Source: Coleofasciculus sp. B1-GNL1-01
GTDB taxonomy: Bacteria; Cyanobacteriota; Cyanobacteriia; Cyanobacteriales; Coleofasciculaceae
Assembly (NCBI GenBank): GCA_040220235.1
Contig: JAVJTO010000023.1
Direction: 5' to 3' (one strand)
Length of the DNA stretch: 47,592 bases
Below the pieces are notes generated by a model that was not told the origin of the DNA, did no database searches, and saw only the letters and a list, made by a program, of their open reading frames with translations. The number at the start of each line of letters is the position of its first letter. The stretch's first letter is position 1. Shown here one piece after another: positions 12,520 to 47,592 of the stretch. The translations under genes were made by a program, and so were the position numbers.

Positions 12520-13740
12520 TCAATCCCGGATTTGCACAGGCATAATCAGGTAGGTCATTTTTAAGCCACCCAGAGGTGTGAGAATCACTGGAGTATTCGC
12601 CGCATTCATTTGTAGCTGAATATCTGACGTAGCTGACGTAGACAGCGCCTTTAAGCCATCGATTAAGTATTTCACATTAAAGGCAATCTCGATACTTTCA
12701 CCCGTAACTTGTGCTGATAGGGACTCTCTCGCACTGCCAACATCTTGAGTTTCCACGGTCAGATCAATGGTTTGCGCCTGGGCATCAATATCAAACTTGA
12801 CGATATTATTCTTCTGATCAGCCAAGACTGCAATCCGCTCAACCGCACTCAGTAATTGACGCCGAGGAATAGCCACCTGGCGCTGAAACTGACCGGGGAT
12901 GAGTTGGCGGTAAGCGGGATATTGTCCCTCTAACGTCCGACTGGTCAAGCGATGATTACCCCCTTGGAAGATAATTTGACCCACCTCAAACTGTAAGGCG
13001 ACGGTATCGCTTGATTCCGAGAGTCCTAACATCCGTTCAAGTTCCCTTAAGGTTCTAGCGGGTACGGTTAGCTCAAAGGAAGATATGGTATCTTCAGAGG
13101 CTGGTTTCTCCTCATTCTCCTCATCCTCTTGGCTTTCCTCACTGGTTGGTTTAGCGTTAAGAGTTTCCACAACCGCTAGTCGGTGACCATCAGTCGCGGC
13201 AAATTCCAGACTATCTTCTTGAACCATCAGATGCACCCCGGTTAGCACCTGTTTCGTTTCATCTGCACTGGTGGCAAATAATGATCCGCGCAATCCTTCA
13301 ACTAAGGCTTCAACCGGGAGTTTAACCACCATTCCATCTTCGATGTGGGGGAGTTCGGGAAAGTCCTCTGAGTTCATTCCTCGCATTTTGTATTGTCCCG
13401 ATGTCGAGGTTAAGGTGATTGATTGGCTTTCGGCGTCCGCATCACTCTCTGCTTCGGAGAGGAAGTCTTCGAGAGTAATGTCTCCCTCTGGCAAACGGGA
13501 AACAATGTCATTGAACAGTTTAGCCGGAATCGCGATCGCGCCATCCGCTTCGACGTTGGCGTTGAAACTGGTTTGCAGACCTAGACTCAAGTCGAAGGCG
13601 GTTAAACTTACTCGCTGATTCTCAGCATCGGCTTCGAGTAACACATTACCCAGTACCGGATGGGTGGGACGTGAGGGAACCGCCCGACTCACCAGAGAAA
13701 GATTGGTATTGAGTTCACTTTGGGTACAAGTTAGTTTCAT
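12520..13740 (-). CDS. dnaN: DNA polymerase III beta clamp
   Basis: SRAVPSRP.HPVL, ATDGHRL, IAFNVKYL, YLIMPVQIR; ATG at 13740. Confidence 0.98.
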   Translation of the reverse strand: MKLTCTQSELNTNLSLVSRAVPSRPTHPVLGNVLLEADAENQRVSLTAFDLSLGLQTSFNANVEADGAIAIPAKLFNDIVSRLPEGDITLEDFLSEAESDADAESQSITLTSTSGQYKMRGMNSEDFPELPHIEDGMVVKLPVEALVEGLRGSLFATSADETKQVLTGVHLMVQEDSLEFAATDGHRLAVVETLNAKPTSEESQEDEENEEKPASEDTISSFELTVPARTLRELERMLGLSESSDTVALQFEVGQIIFQGGNHRLTSRTLEGQYPAYRQLIPGQFQRQVAIPRRQLLSAVERIAVLADQKNNIVKFDIDAQAQTIDLTVETQDVGSARESLSAQVTGESIEIAFNVKYLIDGLKALSTSATSDIQLQMNAANTPVILTPLGGLKMTYLIMPVQIRD

Positions 13741-13877
13741 AGAAGGAATCGTCAATGTTTGGCACAGCTAGAATTCTCGTCAAGGAGAGTCAGGGAGATT
13801 TGAGTGGGACTCTACATGAGGCACAATCGTGGTTCTCTCATCTATCCAGAGGCAACTCTAGCATGGAATTCAGACCT

Positions 13878-13992
13878 TGGGGAAACTGTGGAAAAACTAG
13901 ACTCAGATGATTGCCAATTCCTGAATTCTTCGTGTTTTAGGAATGGAGTCCTTGTGGAAAAGGTTGTGGAAAATTGCGGAATTTTTTCCACC
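13878..13992. promoter_or_regulatory. oriC: Putative oriC: DnaA-box cluster between dnaA and dnaN
   Basis: TGTGGAAAA at 13887, 13953 and 13965; variants TGGGGAAAC 13878, TGCGGAATT 13975, TTTTCCACC 13984; cyanobacterial box is TTTTCCACA. Confidence 0.85.
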
Positions 13993-14147
13993 GTGTATTT
14001 ATACTCATCCCATACCCAATACTTCTCGGATAAGCTCTAATTCAATTTTTTCTCTCCCAAGGGCGGGTCAAAATGTTATCTGTCTAACCCGCCCCTACAC
14101 CCTACACTCTACCTGCACAGTTTCCTGTTCCCCGTTCCCTGTTCCCT

Positions 14148-15533
14148 TTAAGCTTGGCTTTGAGTTTGACTTGCCAAATTAATGCGATCGCTCAATTGAC
14201 TCAGTTTCTGTGCCACGCTGGGATCACGTTCTCGTAATTGGTTAATTTTGTCGCAGCTATACATCACTGTGGTATGATCCTTGCCGCCAAATTCTTCACC
14301 AATTCGGGGTAAGCTCAAGTCAGTATGCTGCCGCATCAGATACATGGCAATTTGTCTAGACCAACTAATTTCTCGGCGGCGTGAGTTTCCTTTTAAGTCC
14401 TCCAGCGAAACGTTAAAGGCGTCGGCGACGGTGGTTAAAATGATTTCCGGTGCTGCTTGTGCAGTTGGGGTTTGTGGATTCAAAATCGGTGCAATGTTCT
14501 CGACACTCATCGGGACTCCCGAAATCGAGATGTAGGCGACGACGCGAATTAATGCCCCCTCGAGTTCGCGGATATTGGATTTATATTGAGTGGCAATATA
14601 CTCAACCACCGATCGCGGCAACCGGATGTTTTCATACTCTGCCTTTTTTTGCAAAATTGCCATCCGGGTTTCCAAGTCAGGCGGCTGAATATCGGCGATT
14701 AACCCCATAGAAAAGCGAGAACACAGCCGTTCCTGCAAGCGGCTAATCTGATGCGGTGGGCGATCGGATGCCAATACGATTTGTTTCCCGGCTTCGTGTA
14801 AGGTATTGAACGTATGAAAAAATTCTTCCTGAGTATATTCTTTTCCTTCGATAAACTGAATATCATCAATCAACAGCACCTCAGCCGCTCGATAGTGTTC
14901 CCGGAAACTTTGCATACTATCTTTGCGGATGGCGGCAATCAGATCATTGGTAAAGTGTTCAGTAGACACATAAAATATTTTAGAGTTAGGAGAATTCTCC
15001 AACCGGAAATGCGCGATCGCTTGCATCAGGTGAGTTTTTCCCAAACCGACGCCCCCACACAAAAACAGGGGATTAAACTCCCGTCCTGGTGATTCGGCTA
15101 CAGCCAAAGCCGCCGCATGAGCCATGCGATTATTTGAACCCACCACGAAGCGAGAAAACACGTACTTCTGATTTAACTCTGTGGGTTTAGGGAGTTGATG
15201 GGATGGACGTTCGGTATCGGGGTTACTCGCCACCGGAACCGACCAGGAAATGCCTGTATCGCTAATTGTCGCATTGTCGTTGTTAGTACTCACGGTGAGG
15301 TAAATGTCCACAGGTTGTCCGAGAATCTCCTGCACCACATCCGTGATTGTTTTGATGTAATACTTTTGCAACCAATTTCTGGCAAAGGGATTGGGGGTAC
15401 AAACCACTAAGCAATTCTGGTCGAGCTGCTGAGCAGTTGTTCCCTTGAGCCAGGTTTCAAACGTGGGTCGGCTGAGTTGGAGTTGTAAACGCTCCAATAC
15501 CTTTATCCAGAGCTGTTCGGGGGACATTTCCAC
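14148..15533 (-). CDS. dnaA: Chromosomal replication initiator DnaA (GTG 15533 fits the AGAGGA RBS spacing)
   Basis: [39 protein letters not shown]. Confidence 0.98.
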
Positions 15534-15687
15534 GGGCATTCCTCTATTGTCGGTAATTGTTGCTTGTTCTCCTCATTCGAGCTATGAGCAAGATATTCCG
15601 GCACACGTCTATCTATAGATATAGCGATTTAGCATTGAGTAAAATACAACAATAAATAGCAACTGTCCAGTTTAATTGCACCCCATT

Positions 15688-42702: not shown

Positions 42703-43599
42703 TCAGCGTTTCCAGAGTTTGAGCGGTTGCAGGATTTTGGCAATCCAACGGAGGGTTTCGGGTTCGGTTAAAATTCCCTGGGTGGGACTGAATAAAAATG
42801 CCAGAATAAAGAAACTAAAGACAACCATGACGATCGCGGGTCCCGATGGCAAATCCAGGTAATAGCTTAAATACATCCCCGTAACACCCGCAATCACACC
42901 AATTATTGCCCCTAATCCCATCATCTGATGCAATTCTTTGACCAAAAGATAGGCAGTAATGGCAGGACCAACCAGGAGGGAGATAACCAGCAGCACGCCC
43001 ACGGTTTGCATACTGGCGACAATCGTCAAGGTAATGGCGCAGACAAAGCCGAAATACATGGTGGTGACGGGTAAACCACTGGCTTGAGCGCCGAGGGGGT
43101 CAAAGGTGTAAAAAAGGAGTTCTTTGTAAAACAGTTTGGTTAACAGTAAAACGATGACGGTAATGATGAGCGTATGCCAGACATCGCTGGTTCTGACCCC
43201 TAAAATATCACCAAATAGAATAGAACTGAGGTCAAATTGATTTGTTTCTAAGAGGGTAATTAGGATAACTCCTAAGCCCAAAAAACTGGTTAAGGTTAAT
43301 GCCATGGCTGCATCTACCTTAACTCGCGATCGCTGATGAATACCAGCCACCACTAAAGCACTCAACGTTCCCGCGATAAACGCCCCCAGAGACAGAAATT
43401 GTTCCCCCACAAAAAAGGCGATGGATAGTCCAGGTAGAACAGCATGGGCGATCACATGAGCGATCATGATCATCTGTTGCACAATCAAATAACTCCCCAC
43501 GACTGCGCCTAAAATTCCCAGCAGCACCGCAATCGCTATGGCGTCACGCATATATCCCCACTGAAGTGGTTCAATTAACCAATCCCACATCCTATCCAC
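42703..43599 (-). CDS. Mn/Zn ABC transporter permease (ZnuB/MntB family)
   Basis: HAVLPG, LFGDIL, FDP..A..SG, VGVLLV, DLPSGP. Confidence 0.93.
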   Translation of the reverse strand: MDRMWDWLIEPLQWGYMRDAIAIAVLLGILGAVVGSYLIVQQMIMIAHVIAHAVLPGLSIAFFVGEQFLSLGAFIAGTLSALVVAGIHQRSRVKVDAAMALTLTSFLGLGVILITLLETNQFDLSSILFGDILGVRTSDVWHTLIITVIVLLLTKLFYKELLFYTFDPLGAQASGLPVTTMYFGFVCAITLTIVASMQTVGVLLVISLLVGPAITAYLLVKELHQMMGLGAIIGVIAGVTGMYLSYYLDLPSGPAIVMVVFSFFILAFLFSPTQGILTEPETLRWIAKILQPLKLWKR

Positions 43600-43696
43600 C
43601 TCATTGATTGTTGGTTTCCTATTGGTATGAATTTTTCCTGAAAATCCGTATTATGGTATCTTTAGCTTTACCGGATGTCAATTTTTGCTGATTGTT

Positions 43697-43860
43697 TAAG
43701 TAGGTGGACACAATTAAAGTGAACGGTTGAGATTAGGGAACAGGGAACAGGGAACAGGGAGCAGTAAGGGTTTGAAGGCAACTTGCAAAACTTAACACAG
43801 TACCGTTTTCTTTTGTCCGACTACTTAGTACAGCAAACAGAATTTATTCCCAGGTACTTA
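43697..43860 (+). mobile_element. MITE with two right ends (43827 and 43860) and an internal GGGAACA array
   Basis: TAAGTAGGTGGACA ... TGTCCGACTACTTA, then ... CCCAGGTACTTA. Confidence 0.75.
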
Positions 43861-43898
43861 TACTCTGTTTTTTTGCCCTAGAGTTTTCTGCATTGACA

Positions 43899-44696
43899 TT
43901 AGGCAACAACCAGGCTCATGAGTTTACCATAGGCTTTCTTAAGGTTTTCAGTTGTCAAGACTTCTGACTTTGAACCCACAGCAATTAGCTCCTTATTTAA
44001 TAGTAATATTTGATCATATTGCTCCAAGGTTTCCCCCAAATCATGACTAATAACCAATATCATTTTATTTTGAAACTTTAAGTCTTGAAAAATCTCAAAA
44101 ATAATCTCTTCTGTCTTTTGATCAATCCCAGCAAACGGCTCATCAAAAAAAAACAATTCTGCCTGTTGCGCCAACGCCCTTGCCAAAAATACTCGTTGTT
44201 GTTGTCCACCCGATAGTTCGCCAATTTGACGATGACGGTATTCAAACAAGCCCACCCGTTCTAATGCATCCTGAACAATCTCCTGGGATTGACGAGATGG
44301 ATTTTTAAACCAACCTGTGTGGATAGTGCGCCCCATCATCACCACATTCCAGACGGTAACCGGATAATTCCAGTCAATTTGGGTGCGCTGTGGTACGTAA
44401 GCAACCCGTTTTCGTTGGCTTTTCAGGGGCTTGGCGTGAAATGTGGCTACCCCTCTGGTGAGGGGAATGAGTCCCAGAATTGCTTTAATAATCGTACTTT
44501 TCCCAGCACCGTTAGGTCCCAACAGTACCGTTAACTGTCCGGGTTGGATGGAAAAGGAAACACCGGAGATTGCCCAGGTATTTCGGTAGTTGACTGCCAA
44601 ATCATGAACTTCGAGCATTACGACCTGTCTGTGAGAATGACTACCATTAACAAATTCTGCTTTCAGCTTATCGGATAGCGATTGCCATGATTTCAC
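43899..44696 (-). CDS. Mn/Zn ABC transporter ATP-binding protein (ZnuC/MntA family)
   Basis: GPNGAGKST, YVPQ, LSGGQQQR, FFDEP, SHD. Confidence 0.95.
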   Translation of the reverse strand: MKSWQSLSDKLKAEFVNGSHSHRQVVMLEVHDLAVNYRNTWAISGVSFSIQPGQLTVLLGPNGAGKSTIIKAILGLIPLTRGVATFHAKPLKSQRKRVAYVPQRTQIDWNYPVTVWNVVMMGRTIHTGWFKNPSRQSQEIVQDALERVGLFEYRHRQIGELSGGQQQRVFLARALAQQAELFFFDEPFAGIDQKTEEIIFEIFQDLKFQNKMILVISHDLGETLEQYDQILLLNKELIAVGSKSEVLTTENLKKAYGKLMSLVVA

Positions 44697-44809
44697 GCTT
44701 TGAGAAGGGATAGGGAAGCTGGGGAAGCTGGGGGAGAGGAAAATACATGAGAACTCCTGGCGAGCCGTATTGGGGATATAGCTGTCGGCATCCGTTTCAA
44801 CTCCAATAT

Positions 44810-44841
44810 TTAGAACGATTATCTATTTAGAATGATTATCA
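44810..44841. promoter_or_regulatory. Tandem Zur (FurB)-like boxes in the divergent promoter
   Basis: TTAGAACGATTATCT and TTAGAATGATTATCA versus consensus TGATAATNATTATCA. Confidence 0.75.
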
Positions 44842-44874
44842 TTATAATTGTCTCTCGGTTTCAGGAGCTTGACT

Positions 44875-45963
44875 ATGCTAAAGTATGTATTCAACCAAAC
44901 CTTGAACGGCTGGAATAGTAAGGTATTGGCATTAGCGATCGCACTGACAGGGTGTGTTCAAACCAACCAGACAACGGTTTCGCCAACAGAAGATGGGACA
45001 TCAGGTGAGAAACCCAGTGTAGTGGTGTCTCATCGCGTCCTTTGCAATTTAACTGAAGAAATTGCCCAAGACACCATTCAACTCAACTGTTTATTAGATC
45101 CGAACCAAGATCCTCACACCTACCGATCAACCCCATCGGATCGCAAAGCCGTTGAAACCGCACAACTGATCCTTTATGGTGGCTATGATGGAGAACCAGG
45201 CGTTGAGGGATTAATTGAAGCCAGCAATACATCAGCCCCTATCGTTGCTGTATTTGAGGAAGCTGTCCCCAATCCCCTGGAGGGAGAAGCACATCACCAT
45301 GATCATCATGGAGATCACCATGATCACGGGGAAAAGGAACAAGGTGAACACTCAGATCATGAAGAACACCATGCCGCCGATAAGGGGGAAAACGTTCCCG
45401 ATCCCCATGTTTGGCATGATGTGCAAAACAGCATAGCGATGGTCGATGTGATTCGCAACCAACTGACAGAGATTAATCCCGATCAGGCTGACTTTTATAC
45501 GGAAAATGCCCAACAGTTAACCACCCAACTCGACCAGTTAGATACCTGGGTCAACGCACAAGTGGAAACAATTCCTTCAGGAAAACGTAAAATTATCACC
45601 ACTCATGATGCTTTGGCTTATTATGTCAACGCTTATGGATTTGAAGCGGCGGAATCGCTACAAGGACTCAGTACCGAAGAAACCCCCTCAGCCGCACGGG
45701 TAAAGGAATTGGTAGGAACCATTGAACAAGCCAAGGTTCCCACGATTTTTGTGGAAACCACAACCAATTCCACCGCCATTGAGACTGTGGCTAGGGAAGC
45801 GAATGTCAAGGTTTGGGACCAAAAACTGTTTGTTGGTAGTCTGGGTGCCCAAAATAGTGACACGGCAACCTATATCGGAATGATGACACACAATACCTGC
45901 GCGATCGCGAAAGGGTTGGGTGGAACTTGTACTCCGTTCAAACTAATGACAGGTGAAAATTAG
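44875..45963 (+). CDS. znuA: Zinc ABC transporter solute-binding lipoprotein with His-rich loop
   Basis: Lipobox LTGC; DPHTY, DPHVW, HDA ligands; HHHDHHGDHHDH loop. Confidence 0.88.
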   Translation: MLKYVFNQTLNGWNSKVLALAIALTGCVQTNQTTVSPTEDGTSGEKPSVVVSHRVLCNLTEEIAQDTIQLNCLLDPNQDPHTYRSTPSDRKAVETAQLILYGGYDGEPGVEGLIEASNTSAPIVAVFEEAVPNPLEGEAHHHDHHGDHHDHGEKEQGEHSDHEEHHAADKGENVPDPHVWHDVQNSIAMVDVIRNQLTEINPDQADFYTENAQQLTTQLDQLDTWVNAQVETIPSGKRKIITTHDALAYYVNAYGFEAAESLQGLSTEETPSAARVKELVGTIEQAKVPTIFVETTTNSTAIETVAREANVKVWDQKLFVGSLGAQNSDTATYIGMMTHNTCAIAKGLGGTCTPFKLMTGEN

Positions 45964-47195
45964 CCTGAAGAGGAATGATACAGCGTCGGTTTGGTTAAGG
46001 CGGGTACAATGCGATCGCTCGCCATTTTCCCACCGTACAGGTTCCGTGCCACGGGTCCTATCTGGAGTGCGGCTAAACCTCCCATCACAAATAATTCACA
46101 ACCCGACCAACGCAGATGCTCGTCTAAAACGGGCAGACCCTTGACAAGCGGTACAGGATATGCGTCAATAACATCCTTAAGTAACGGGTCAACGGTGGCA
46201 TCAAAGCCAGTTCCAGTGGCATACCAAATACGTTGACATTCATAGACTTGACCATCATCACAGTCAACCTGCCACTGGTTATCCTGCCACCGTGCCTCAA
46301 CCACCTGGCATTCCGGATAAAACCTCAGCTTACCTTGCCGTTCCAGGCGGCGTAACTGAAACATCATCTTTGGCGTCATTGATCCCCCATTTCGCGCTCC
46401 CTGAATCATCTCCCACCGCCTGTGCCAATCCGGTTCAGCCCAAAAGTCCTTGAGATACTTCGGTCCCAACCAACCCGGTTCAGCATCAAACCATTTTTCC
46501 TGAAGCCGACGCCGCGACATTAACATCACCTTCGCTCCCCGTGCTGCTGCACCCACGGCTAAATGTCCACTCGTCAACCCACCCCCAATAATCAACACCT
46601 GCTCACCAACTATCGGCACGTTCCGTAAATCAACAGTTTGAGCATGGCATAATCGGTCAGTTGGATAAGCCGATGTCATCTTATCCACCCAATCCGGTAC
46701 AATCTTCCTCCCTGCACCCGTCGCCAGAACCACCCGACGAGCGATGACTGATTGCCCATTGGATAACTCTAGGCGAAATCGAGGGCGTTTGAGAACCGTG
46801 GTTGGTTTAAGGCTACTCACAGCAGCCCGAACCAGCTTATCCGGCAATCCCCACTGATGGATAACATCCTGACAAAACTCCTCAAATAGCTGCGTTCCGG
46901 GAAGATCATAGGGTGGAAAAAATGCCGACTCCCGGTTTTCGGCAAAAGAGCGCAGCGCATAAGGGTTGGGGTGGGGATGGTGAACCGCAGGGGATCTCAG
47001 ATGAGGAATGTCTAGGGCGGCAAATTGATGGAACCACCGATTCATCCATCTGCCACTAGCATCAAACACCCAAAACCTATCCTTCATTGTCTTACGTTTT
47101 TGCAGTAGGTGAGTGACTAGAGTTAGAGCCTGGGGACCTGCGCCAACAATGGCAATGTCAATGTTCGCGGGTAAGGATGCCGAATGGTTTGTCAT
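45960..47195 (-). CDS. FAD/NAD(P)-dependent oxidoreductase (flavin monooxygenase-like fold)
   Basis: GAGPQA and GGGLTS Rossmann motifs, two ATG motifs, HLRSP. Confidence 0.88.
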   Translation of the reverse strand: MTNHSASLPANIDIAIVGAGPQALTLVTHLLQKRKTMKDRFWVFDASGRWMNRWFHQFAALDIPHLRSPAVHHPHPNPYALRSFAENRESAFFPPYDLPGTQLFEEFCQDVIHQWGLPDKLVRAAVSSLKPTTVLKRPRFRLELSNGQSVIARRVVLATGAGRKIVPDWVDKMTSAYPTDRLCHAQTVDLRNVPIVGEQVLIIGGGLTSGHLAVGAAARGAKVMLMSRRRLQEKWFDAEPGWLGPKYLKDFWAEPDWHRRWEMIQGARNGGSMTPKMMFQLRRLERQGKLRFYPECQVVEARWQDNQWQVDCDDGQVYECQRIWYATGTGFDATVDPLLKDVIDAYPVPLVKGLPVLDEHLRWSGCELFVMGGLAALQIGPVARNLYGGKMASDRIVPALTKPTLYHSSSG

Positions 47196-47223
47196 GAAAA
47201 CTCTGACCTTTGATTTACAATAA

Positions 47224-47253
47224 CGATAATCGTTCTTATGATAATGATTATCA
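47224..47253. promoter_or_regulatory. Tandem Zur boxes, one a perfect consensus match
   Basis: TGATAATGATTATCA at 47239-47253; CGATAATCGTTCTTA at 47224-47238. Confidence 0.85.
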
Positions 47254-47275
47254 CAATTGTGACGCCGAGTAACCC

Positions 47276-47374
47276 CTCAATCTGTGCCAAAGCATTTGGG
47301 GCGGCACAAACTGCCCAAGTACCACCCAACACCACTGGGTTCACGATTACAGTATTCCACCATGTTTTTGCCAT
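47276..47374 (-). pseudogene. Inverted 5' end (start codon and signal peptide) of a cyanobacterial SLH/OprB-type porin
   Basis: MAKTWWNTVIVNPVVLGGTWAVCAAPNALAQIE resembles porin leaders; preceded by GTGTGAGGAGT RBS. Confidence 0.8.
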
Positions 47375-47378
47375 AGTT

Positions 47379-47389
47379 ACTCCTCACAC
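47379..47389 (-). promoter_or_regulatory. Yfr1 sRNA target site overlapping the RBS (GTGTGAGGAGT)
   Basis: Exact complement of the conserved Yfr1 motif ACUCCUCACAC. Confidence 0.75.
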
Positions 47390-47424
47390 CCTATTCAGTT
47401 CTAAGGTCTTGCCCGATCACCTAG

Positions 47425-47592
47425 CGGTACAACCCCATCACCCAAACGAATGCTCTTGAGCAAGTCACCAGTGTCTCTCAGTTACGAGATGTTTCCCCTG
47501 GCGATTGGGCGTATGAAGCCCTACGCAGTCTGGTGGAACGGTATGGTTGTATCGCGGGCTATCCCGATGGCACCTATCGCGGGAATCGAGCC
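47425..47592 (+). pseudogene. Body of a cyanobacterial SLH-domain outer-membrane porin with no start in this orientation; runs off the window
   Basis: RYNPITQTNALEQVTSVSQLRDVSPGDWAYEALRSLVERYGCIAGYPDGTYRGNRA; in-frame TAG at 47422-47424 directly upstream. Confidence 0.92.

What the first reader, a model, noticed from the sequence alone, without database searches (positions are those of the whole stretch)
47276..47592. Porin gene split by a ~149-bp inversion: candidate ON/OFF invertible switch
Seen: the + strand from 47425 encodes a clear porin SLH domain (QVTSVSQLRDV...YGCIAGYPDG). It is preceded by an in-frame TAG and has no ATG or signal peptide. The matching RBS, ATG and leader sit on the - strand at 47389-47276. 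Reverse-complementing 47276-47424 gives ...AAT GCT TTG GCA CAG ATT GAG|CGG TAC AAC..., one frame reading ALAQIERYNPITQTNALEQVTS. This recreates the Q-I-x-R-Y motif typical upstream of the SLH domain and places the 5'UTR behind the Zur boxes. The breakpoints share only CT/AG microhomology inside weak inverted flanks (GTAACCCCT versus GTACCGCT). Inference: a phase-variable intragenic inverton gating a zinc-regulated porin (a plausible phage receptor), or a one-off inactivating inversion, or an assembly artefact. No recombinase is encoded in this window.
Basis: partly seen in the sequence, partly recalled or inferred. Interest (0 to 1): 0.9.

Follow-up and report, generated by a model that had tools for sequence, protein, structure and literature searches.

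The report
One-off inversion scar in porin gene
A 151-base stretch carrying the start and export signal of a zinc-island porin gene really is flipped in this cyanobacterial genome, but it looks like a single mutational accident, probably in a redundant broken copy, and not like a reversible on/off switch.

Summary
The minus strand at 47374-47276 encodes RBS, ATG and a porin signal peptide. The plus strand from 47425 encodes linker and SLH domain behind an in-frame TAG. Orthologues put the breakpoints one base out on each side: 47275-47425, 151 nt, a clean inversion with no base lost or gained.

It does not look like a switch.
- All 6 same-genus genomes that hold the locus have the native orientation, as do contigs of three other runs.
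- The breakpoints share only 3 nt (ACC/GGT). Their inverted-repeat score is below the random mean.
- None of the 53 neighbouring ORFs scanned hit a recombinase family.
- All 11 other SLH-porin paralogues have collinear N-termini.

The window is a whole contig that ends in a 2-in/2-out assembly repeat. The genome holds a second copy of the promoter and 5' end in native orientation (C133). It also holds two possible continuations: an intact porin-cobW operon (C5) and a deleted, truncated remnant (C29).

Most likely this is a fixed, non-programmed inversion. I lean towards it sitting in the decayed redundant copy. Interest is low.

The parts
42703..45963 (.). znuB (42703-43599, -), znuC (43899-44696, -) and znuA (44848-45963, +, with a His-rich loop): the zinc ABC importer next to the locus
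   Evidence: Pfam ABC-3 1.7e-69, ABC_tran 5.1e-31, ZnuA 7.2e-79
45960..47195 (-). FAD/NAD(P)-binding oxidoreductase gene, transcribed divergently from the porin promoter region; full length in this contig
   Evidence: Pfam Pyr_redox_2 1.3e-10, NAD_binding_9 8.4e-09; ORF
47214..47260 (+). Promoter-like site (TTTACA-17-TATGAT, 47214-47242) overlapped by two palindromes (AACGATAATCGTT at 47222-47234; TGATAATGATTATCA at 47239-47253). Zur/Fur-type operators are inferred, not tested. The region lies outside the inverted block.
   Evidence: (I6, I10, I1). In this stretch (52 alignment columns) the two G000 copies do not differ, while neighbouring parts differ by 5-15%; each carries one singleton against the orthologue consensus.
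47275..47425 (-). The inverted block (151 nt). Read on the minus strand it holds the 5'UTR (47425-47386), RBS GAGGAG (47385-47380), ATG (47374-47372), the signal-peptide codons (to 47276) and the first base of the next codon (47275).
   Evidence: Orientation is opposite to the flanks relative to 6 of 6 orthologues and to C133. Breakpoints were mapped.
47272..47274 (.). Left microhomology ACC, the inverted complement of GGT at 47426-47428. This is the only sequence shared by the two breakpoints.
   Evidence: Overlap of flank and inverted alignments; joints 47272/47429 with 'both = 3'
47422..47424 (+). In-frame TAG created by the inversion, directly upstream of the orphaned porin frame
   Evidence: sequence; no ORF start before GTG at 47533 in this frame
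47426..47592 (+). Linker and first part of the SLH domain of the porin, cut off by the contig end
   Evidence: Pfam SLH 1.1e-05, 25.8 bits
47452..47592 (.). 141 nt identical to the second copy (C133:1-141, reverse complement). With the first 141 nt of C5 and C29 this forms a 206-nt tract identical in both copies, a likely gene-conversion tract and the cause of the assembly break.

Best explanation
This is a fixed, non-programmed 151-bp inversion (47275-47425), a mutational scar and not a switch.

In the ancestral arrangement, kept by all congeners that hold the locus, a palindrome-guarded promoter drives 5'UTR, RBS, ATG, signal peptide, linker, SLH and an OprB barrel, followed by COG0523/cobW genes. 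In this contig the UTR-to-signal-peptide block was cut out and re-joined backwards with no base lost. The only shared sequence at the joints is a 3-nt inverted microhomology (ACC/GGT). I infer an illegitimate event, either a replication template switch or two breaks re-joined.

Consequence, read directly from the sequence: transcripts from the promoter carry the antisense of the start region. The SLH/barrel frame is left behind a TAG without RBS, start codon or export signal, so this copy cannot make an exported porin.

The genome holds two copies of the promoter and 5' region (C23 inverted, C133 native) and two 3' continuations (C5 intact porin operon; C29 remnant). The remnant has a 762-bp internal deletion and is truncated at porin nt 975.

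I think it most likely (about 55-60% of the one-off case) that the inverted 5' end belongs to the C29 remnant. On that reading it is a third lesion in an already dead, redundant copy beside znuABC and the FAD gene, and the working gene is C133 + C5. The one-off, non-switching part I hold at about 0.85-0.9. The confidence given here is for the whole statement, including that linkage.
For: Orientation survey.
- Of 8 same-genus genomes, 6 hold the locus (G002, G003, G004, G005, G007, G008) and all 6 have the block in the opposite, collinear orientation. G001 and G006 show only paralogue SLH hits.
- Contigs of runs X2, X3 and X4 (two studies) also join in the native way.
- The in-genome paralogue C133:1-552 is native too.

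Clean event. The re-inverted C23 matches G003 and G007 base for base at both junctions and restores the orthologues' ...QIEGYNP....

No recombination sites. The breakpoint-window inverted-repeat score is 4, against a null mean of 4.6. The left site varies among congeners (GCT, GAT, AAAT).

No recombinase, integrase or transposase family was hit. This covers 30 window ORFs of at least 110 aa, 10 in C5, 5 each in the ends of C133 and C41, and 3 in C29.

All 11 other SLH-porin paralogues have same-strand N-termini.

Linkage to the remnant.
- The graph allows C29 -> rc(C23).
- In G003 the C29-like cyclase flank abuts znuA in exactly that orientation.
- Three lesions would then sit in one dead copy.
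- C5 is intact, with 6 synonymous and 1 non-synonymous lineage-unique codon changes.
- Both promoter copies are conserved: the two copies do not differ in 52 columns. That fits one copy serving the FAD gene and the other the porin operon.
Against: Linkage is not shown.
- In G002, G004, G005 and G008 the znuA-FAD-promoter region runs straight into C5-like sequence, in G002 for about 16 kb. That favours C23 -> C5, meaning the inversion would sit on the only full-length gene.
- Singleton-substitution counts do not discriminate between the copies (Fisher p = 0.13).
- The tree of the two copies with the orthologues is an unresolved star.

No raw reads of the source were available. No run holds more than 0.37 of the sampled words, so a minority of cells with the other orientation cannot be excluded.

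A perfectly clean, frame-restoring inversion that removes exactly the start module is also what a designed switch would look like.

The mechanism (template switch or re-joined breaks) is inferred.
Confidence: 0.5

Rival explanations
1. The same one-off inversion, but on the full-length gene (C23 joins C5). This would be a recent knock-out of the only complete zinc-island porin, possibly selected (loss of a phage receptor or of a metal entry route). C133 + C29 would then be a stray 690-bp fragment lying between a cyclase gene and argZ.
For: Four congeners (G002, G004, G005, G008) have znuA-FAD-promoter-porin-cobW contiguous, and G002 is collinear to C5:13274. The inverted block shows no decay: RBS, ATG and ORF are intact and it is 95.5% identical to G007. 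C5 is intact, as expected for a very recent event. The G005 orthologue also appears disrupted, with 1234 nt missing, which hints at recurrent loss.
Against: It needs a novel cyclase-argZ adjacency seen in no relative. G003 has cyclase|znuA, and G001, G002 and G003 have C61|argZ. It also needs a fragment inserted without homology at either side. The fact that G003's cyclase flank abuts the znu cluster would then be a coincidence. The stray fragment would have kept its promoter palindromes (no difference between the two copies in 52 columns) and an intact signal-peptide ORF despite about 8.5% overall divergence between the copies.
Confidence: 0.35
2. A programmed, reversible intragenic inverton. 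An unlinked site-specific recombinase would flip the start module and so gate the porin on and off.
For: The inversion is exact, restores the frame and removes precisely UTR, RBS, ATG and signal peptide, with both states intact. Intragenic invertons exist in other phyla (passages read in bioRxiv 10.1101/2023.03.11.532203). Surface porins are typical phase-variation targets (general knowledge).
Against: No inverted repeats: score 4 against a null of 4.6, with only 3 nt shared. The passages read describe a pair of inverted repeats as what site-specific recombinases recognise and as what the detection method looks for. The left junction sequence is not conserved among congeners. Six of 6 congeners and 3 other runs are all native. 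The contig runs through both junctions without a graph break. None of the 53 ORFs scanned hit a recombinase family. None of the 11 paralogues shows the same arrangement.
Confidence: 0.05
3. An assembly or library artefact: the DNA is really collinear, and the inversion comes from chimeric reads or a mis-traversed graph.
For: The feature lies 167 nt from a contig end, in a repeat-rich porin family with a second copy in the genome. The source reads could not be examined.
Against: Both junctions lie inside one contig, and every word of a de Bruijn contig must occur in reads. The two copies are only about 93% alike in the block, so they share no long words that could mislead the graph. A separately built 151-nt contig of run X1 matches 47261-47411 with 0 differences across the left junction. 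X1 may be the same sample, and only 14 nt lie left of the joint. Chimeras do not usually give a reciprocal two-junction inversion with no lost base (inference).
Confidence: 0.05

Closest known systems
Invertons, including intragenic invertons (Salmonella hin, E. coli fimS, Bacteroides; bioRxiv 10.1101/2023.03.11.532203, passages read; hin and fimS recalled)
   Same: A short DNA block inside or at the start of a gene lies in the opposite orientation to the functional arrangement and abolishes the product.
   Different: The defining inverted repeats are absent. No invertase gene is nearby. There is no evidence of both orientations in one population. The orientation is fixed native in all 6 relatives.
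Spontaneous small inversions at micro-homologies or short inverted repeats: replication template switching or illegitimate re-joining (recalled from general knowledge; no paper read here)
   Same: A single, clean inversion with only a few bases of inverted homology (ACC/GGT) at the joints, seen in one lineage, causing loss of function.
   Different: The mechanism cannot be shown from sequence. 3 nt of microhomology is only slightly more than chance (my rough estimate, about 5%).
Cyanobacterial SLH-OprB outer-membrane porins
   Same: Signal peptide, SLH domain and OprB barrel (Pfam SLH 2.9e-08 and OprB 7.8e-49 on the G004 orthologue; OprB 1.7e-47 on C5).
   Different: This one sits behind Fur-family-like palindromes inside a znuABC/COG0523 island. 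The Anabaena paper states that none of its porin-like genes was found to be Zur-regulated. In this contig the gene's start module is inverted.
Zur regulon islands (znuABC, COG0523/cobW-like GTPases, paralogous enzymes; review PMC6103462, passages read)
   Same: Gene content around the locus: znuABC, several cobW/COG0523 genes, GTP cyclohydrolase I and a second znuABC. Palindromic boxes overlap the promoter.
   Different: Zur binding is untested here. I did not check the boxes against a cyanobacterial consensus by any search.

Membership tests
Site-specific invertible element (inverton / phase-variation switch) | A pair of inverted repeats at the two breakpoints, recognised by the recombinase | tested here: not met
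   Smith-Waterman score of +/-12-nt breakpoint windows is 4 in both orientations. The null from 20,000 random pairs has mean 4.6, and 86% of them score 4 or more. Overlap of flank and inverted alignments is only 3 nt on the left and 6 nt (imperfect) on the right.
Site-specific invertible element (inverton / phase-variation switch) | Both orientations co-exist in a clonal population | not testable with these tools
   No run holds more than 0.37 of the sampled words, and all runs are kept as contigs. The assembly and X1 show only the inverted form for the C23-type copy.
Site-specific invertible element (inverton / phase-variation switch) | A serine or tyrosine invertase encoded nearby | tested here: not met
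   No recombinase, integrase or transposase family at E<=1e-5. This covers 30 window ORFs, 10 in C5, 5 each in the ends of C133 and C41, and 3 in C29. An unlinked enzyme elsewhere in the 8.66-Mb genome was not searched for.
Site-specific invertible element (inverton / phase-variation switch) | Orientation varies among related strains, with conserved sites | tested here: not met
   All 6 congeners that hold the locus are native, as are 3 further runs. The left junction sequence differs among them.
SLH-OprB porin | N-terminal signal peptide, SLH domain and C-terminal OprB barrel in one ORF | tested here: not met
   All modules are present (SLH 25.8 bits on window 47425-47592; OprB 1.7e-47 on C5). 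In this contig, however, the signal peptide lies on the other strand, so no single ORF exists. The G004 orthologue (549 aa) meets the feature in one ORF. So does the composite C133 + C5 reading (558 aa), which I joined in a script for comparison only.
Zur-regulated gene | A Zur box in the promoter, shown to bind Zur or to respond to zinc | not testable with these tools
   Palindromes overlap the -35/-10-like site, and the neighbours are znuABC and COG0523 genes. The review read says that box presence alone is insufficient.

The most novel reading that the evidence does not exclude
The inverted start module sits on the full-length porin gene, and the cell can switch it back on. It would do so not with an invertase but by gene conversion from the second, native-orientation copy of the promoter and 5' end (C133), used as a silent cassette in the manner of pilE/pilS. 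The 206-nt tract that is identical in both copies, beginning 26 nt beyond the right breakpoint amid about 8.5% divergence, shows that the two copies do exchange sequence.
Probability: 0.04. Interest if true: 0.6.

Novelty: already known. Interest (0 to 1): 0.13.

Why it matters
If the switch reading had held, it would have been the first invertible on/off element on a cyanobacterial outer-membrane porin, and a handle on zinc uptake and phage-receptor variation. The evidence instead points to an ordinary mutational inversion at a contig end, probably in a redundant gene fragment. The practical lessons are for annotation. The split porin here should be called a pseudogene fragment, the functional gene is probably C133 + C5, and assemblies that break in the conserved SLH region can hide which 5' end belongs to which body. 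The mobility of the whole zinc island within the genus (see Noticed in passing) is mildly interesting for genome-plasticity studies.

Tried and rejected
- Raw-read test of both orientations. The look-up of sequencing runs found no run with more than 0.37 of the words, and all runs are kept as contigs. Read laying on X1-X4 gave orientation in other samples but no population ratio. Parts of the stretch without cover in X1 and X2 say nothing.
- Search for the inverted right junction elsewhere. I scanned for a 19-mer taken from the window. It gave 1 stretch in metagenome contigs and 2 in genome contigs. All three are unrelated chance matches (a Pseudomonadales MAG filed twice, and a Leptolyngbya contig with no homology to the locus).
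- Linkage by synteny. The relatives disagree: four support C23->C5, and G003 supports C29->rc(C23).
- G003's 62-nt spacer between cyclase and znuA has no trace of porin or FAD sequence.
- C61 and C5 both end in multi-copy repeats, so they give no link.
- Linkage by substitution pattern. Singleton counts per sub-region are within the range of the functional orthologues (Fisher p = 0.13). Not discriminating.
- A tree of the two 5' copies with 6 orthologues is a star with no supported fork. It cannot tell an old duplication from an import out of another species.
- Mixed strains as the source of the second copy: rejected. C133, C29 and C5 have no second homologous contig beyond the roughly 700-bp fragment.
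- The same trick in other porins: rejected. 11 of 11 paralogues are collinear. Two seemed to lack a signal peptide only because my script took the first ATG.
- Earlier scan notes. Nothing near this place. One unrelated porin note came up by sequence.
- The primary Anabaena Zur paper (PMC3347182) is not held. I used the review instead.

Full report
**Observation.** The window is the whole contig G000:C23, and the finding lies in its last 320 bases.

- On the minus strand there is an RBS (GAGGAG, 47385-47380), an ATG (47374-47372) and 33 codons of a typical porin leader, MAKTWWNTVIVNPVVLGGTWAVCAAPNALAQIE.
- On the plus strand, from 47425, a frame reads RYNPITQTNALEQVTSVSQLRDV...GYPDGTYRGNRA. It is preceded by an in-frame TAG (47422-47424) and has no start codon.
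- The plus-strand piece scores as an SLH domain (25.8 bits, cut-off 20.8).
- Upstream lie a promoter-like site (TTTACA-17-TATGAT, 47214-47242) and two palindromes (47222-47234 and 47239-47253).
- Then comes the divergent FAD/NAD-binding oxidoreductase gene (45960-47195), followed by znuA, znuC and znuB.

**Exact anatomy.** A search of 40 relatives found the locus in 6 of the 8 same-genus genomes: G002, G003, G004, G005, G007 and G008. G001 and G006 gave only paralogue SLH hits.

- In all six, the flanks match one strand and the middle block matches the other strand. Relative to this window, their block is therefore collinear with the gene.
- The alignment puts the block at 47275-47425 (151 nt). 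G003 and G007 read ...GAGTAACC|GCTAGG...TTGAGG|GGTACAACC... and the window reads ...GAGTAACC|CCTCAA...CTAGC|GGTACAACC... No base was lost or gained.
- Re-inverting that block in a script restores ...ALAQIEGYNPITQTNALEQ..., with the EGYNP of every orthologue.
- The two joints share only ACC/GGT. A local alignment of the breakpoint windows scores 4. That is below the mean of 4.6 for 20,000 random position pairs at the same spacing, and 86% of those pairs reach 4. The 'weak inverted flanks' are chance.

**A second copy, and an assembly fork.** The same genome holds a second copy of window 47041-47592 at the start of contig C133. It is 91-98% identical in the separate aligned pieces, and its block is in the native orientation. 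That copy keeps only the first 155 nt of the FAD gene.

- The last 141 nt of C23 and of C133 (reverse complement) are identical.
- Both ends overlap by 76 nt with the start of C5 and with the end of C29. This is a 2-in/2-out repeat node.
- C5 continues as an intact porin (494 further residues; OprB 1.7e-47), followed by cobW, WD40, cobW and GTP cyclohydrolase I.
- C29 continues for 55 codons to a stop. It equals C5:1-167 joined to C5:930-975, and then runs straight into the 3' flank of a CHASE2 cyclase gene. It is a deleted and truncated remnant.
- C133, C29 and C5 have no other homologous contig. This is one genome with a fragment duplicated over about 700 bp, not a mixture of two strains.

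**Is it a switch?** Nothing supports that.
- No inverted repeats.
- The left junction differs among congeners.
- No recombinase, integrase or transposase family was hit in the ORFs scanned. These were 30 in the window, 10 in C5, 5 each in the ends of C133 and C41, and 3 in C29.
- The promoter lies outside the block.
- All 11 other SLH-porin paralogues in the genome have their N-termini on the same strand.
- Orientation is native in 6 of 6 congeners.
- It is also native in contigs of runs X2, X3 and X4 (two studies). X3 and X4 show strand-changing joints at 47272/47429 and 47274/47401. X2 record 5 joins the left flank to the reverse of 47405-47425.
- Run X1 holds a 151-nt contig identical to 47261-47411 and also a contig of the C133 type. 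X1 therefore carries the same two copies and is probably the same organism or sample. It confirms the left junction in a separate assembly, but it is not independent, and only 14 nt lie left of the joint.
- The inverted right junction was not found elsewhere.
- Source reads were not available, so a minor sub-population in the other orientation cannot be excluded.
- The passages I read in the intragenic-inverton preprint describe a pair of inverted repeats as what site-specific recombinases recognise, and as what the detection method searches for. That feature is absent here.

**Which body does the inverted start belong to?** This is open.

For C23->C5:
- G002, G004, G005 and G008 have znuA-FAD-promoter-porin-cobW contiguous.
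- In G002 the collinearity runs to C5:13274.

For C23->C29:
- In G003 the C29-like cyclase flank abuts znuA, in just the orientation of the graph edge C29->rc(C23).
- The alternative pairing, C29-C133, would need a cyclase-argZ adjacency that no relative has. G001, G002 and G003 all have C61|argZ.
- Three lesions (truncation, 762-bp deletion, inversion) would then sit in one dead copy.
- The intact 5' end (C133) would then sit on the intact, well-conserved body. C5 has 6 synonymous and 1 non-synonymous lineage-unique codon changes.
- The two promoter copies do not differ in 52 columns, against 5-15% difference in neighbouring parts. That fits one copy serving the FAD gene and the other the porin operon.

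Not helpful:
- Substitution counts do not discriminate.
- The tree is unresolved.
- The two copies are 91.5% identical, no closer to each other than to other species' orthologues. The second copy is therefore either old or imported.

I lean about 55-60% to the remnant.

**Mechanism and consequence.**
- Shown: this copy cannot express an exported porin, because the SLH/barrel frame has no RBS, ATG or leader and follows a TAG.
- Inferred: the inversion arose once by an illegitimate event that used 3 nt of inverted microhomology, either a template switch or two breaks re-joined.
- Inferred: the 206-nt tract identical between the copies is a gene-conversion tract. It lies within the 256-nt collinear stretch between the inversion on one side and the remnant's deletion on the other.

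**Known comparisons.** It works like any loss-of-function inversion. It is not a member of the inverton class, because a defining feature was tested and not met. The gene itself is a standard cyanobacterial SLH-OprB porin inside a zinc-homeostasis island whose content matches reviewed Zur regulons (passages of PMC6103462). The Anabaena porin study states that none of its porin-like genes was found under Zur control (passages of PMC9705863). A porin behind such palindromes is therefore a small point of interest of its own, but it is untested.

**Verdict.** The switch interpretation is not supported. This is an ordinary, one-off inversion at a contig end, probably in a redundant fragment. Interest is low.

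Noticed in passing
G000:C133:1-552 and G000:C29:59863-60075 (outside the window): A second partial copy of the FAD-N-terminus/promoter/porin-5' region and a deleted porin remnant. The two 5' copies are 91.5% identical overall, yet share a 206-nt identical tract. That points to gene conversion between dispersed copies.
   Followed up: yes
L024/L035 (G003:C31), L026 (G007:C723), L034 (G000:C102:138000-146000): The whole FAD-porin-cobW-WD40-cobW-GTP-cyclohydrolase block sits in different places within the genus. It lies next to znuABC in G002, G004, G005 and G008. In G003 and G007 it lies inside a site equivalent to G000:C102:143129. The same site holds about 21 kb of other cargo in G004 and about 3.5 kb in G002, and nothing in G008 or G000. 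This looks like an insertion hotspot and a mobile zinc island.
   Followed up: partly
L011 (G005:C435:1-2570): The G005 orthologue jumps from the SLH region (equivalent to C5:2) to C5:1237. 1234 nt are missing and the frame is lost. This is either an independent disruption of the same porin or a misassembly in a 620-contig genome.
   Followed up: no
L037 (G000:C5:9486-13274): The distal part of C5 (P-type heavy-metal ATPase, PIN, Crp-like regulator) is 97-99% identical to G002. The rest of the region is about 93-96% identical. This may be a recent exchange between species.
   Followed up: no
L040 (G000:C41:16400-20300): By synteny with G002 and G003, C5 is followed by the reverse of C41, which carries a second znuA-znuC-znuB set plus another cobW/COG0523 gene. 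The metal island would then span more than 30 kb over three contigs.
   Followed up: partly
G000:C5, porin body (translation): The porin body contains a His/Glu-rich stretch (...HNQEEEEHGHG...). ZnuA (window 44848-45963) has a long His-rich loop. The stretch could be a metal-binding loop in a porin that sits behind Fur-family-like palindromes. The Anabaena study read here reports no porin-like gene under Zur.
   Followed up: no
window 12520-15539: dnaN (12520-13755) and dnaA (14148-15539) lie in this contig, with minC and minD at 708-2317. This is chromosomal DNA, possibly near the replication origin.
   Followed up: no
window ~41646: G003 and G004 both have C119-like sequence to the left of the znu cluster. 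In G000 the contig continues with unrelated genes, so there is a further synteny break at about 41646.
   Followed up: no
G000:C61:19670-19856 and G000:C5:13290-13721: Both contig ends stop in multi-copy repeats. The C61 end matches at least 7 other contig ends at 97-100%, and the C5 end matches C110 and C45. IS- or MITE-like elements flank the rearranged regions.
   Followed up: no
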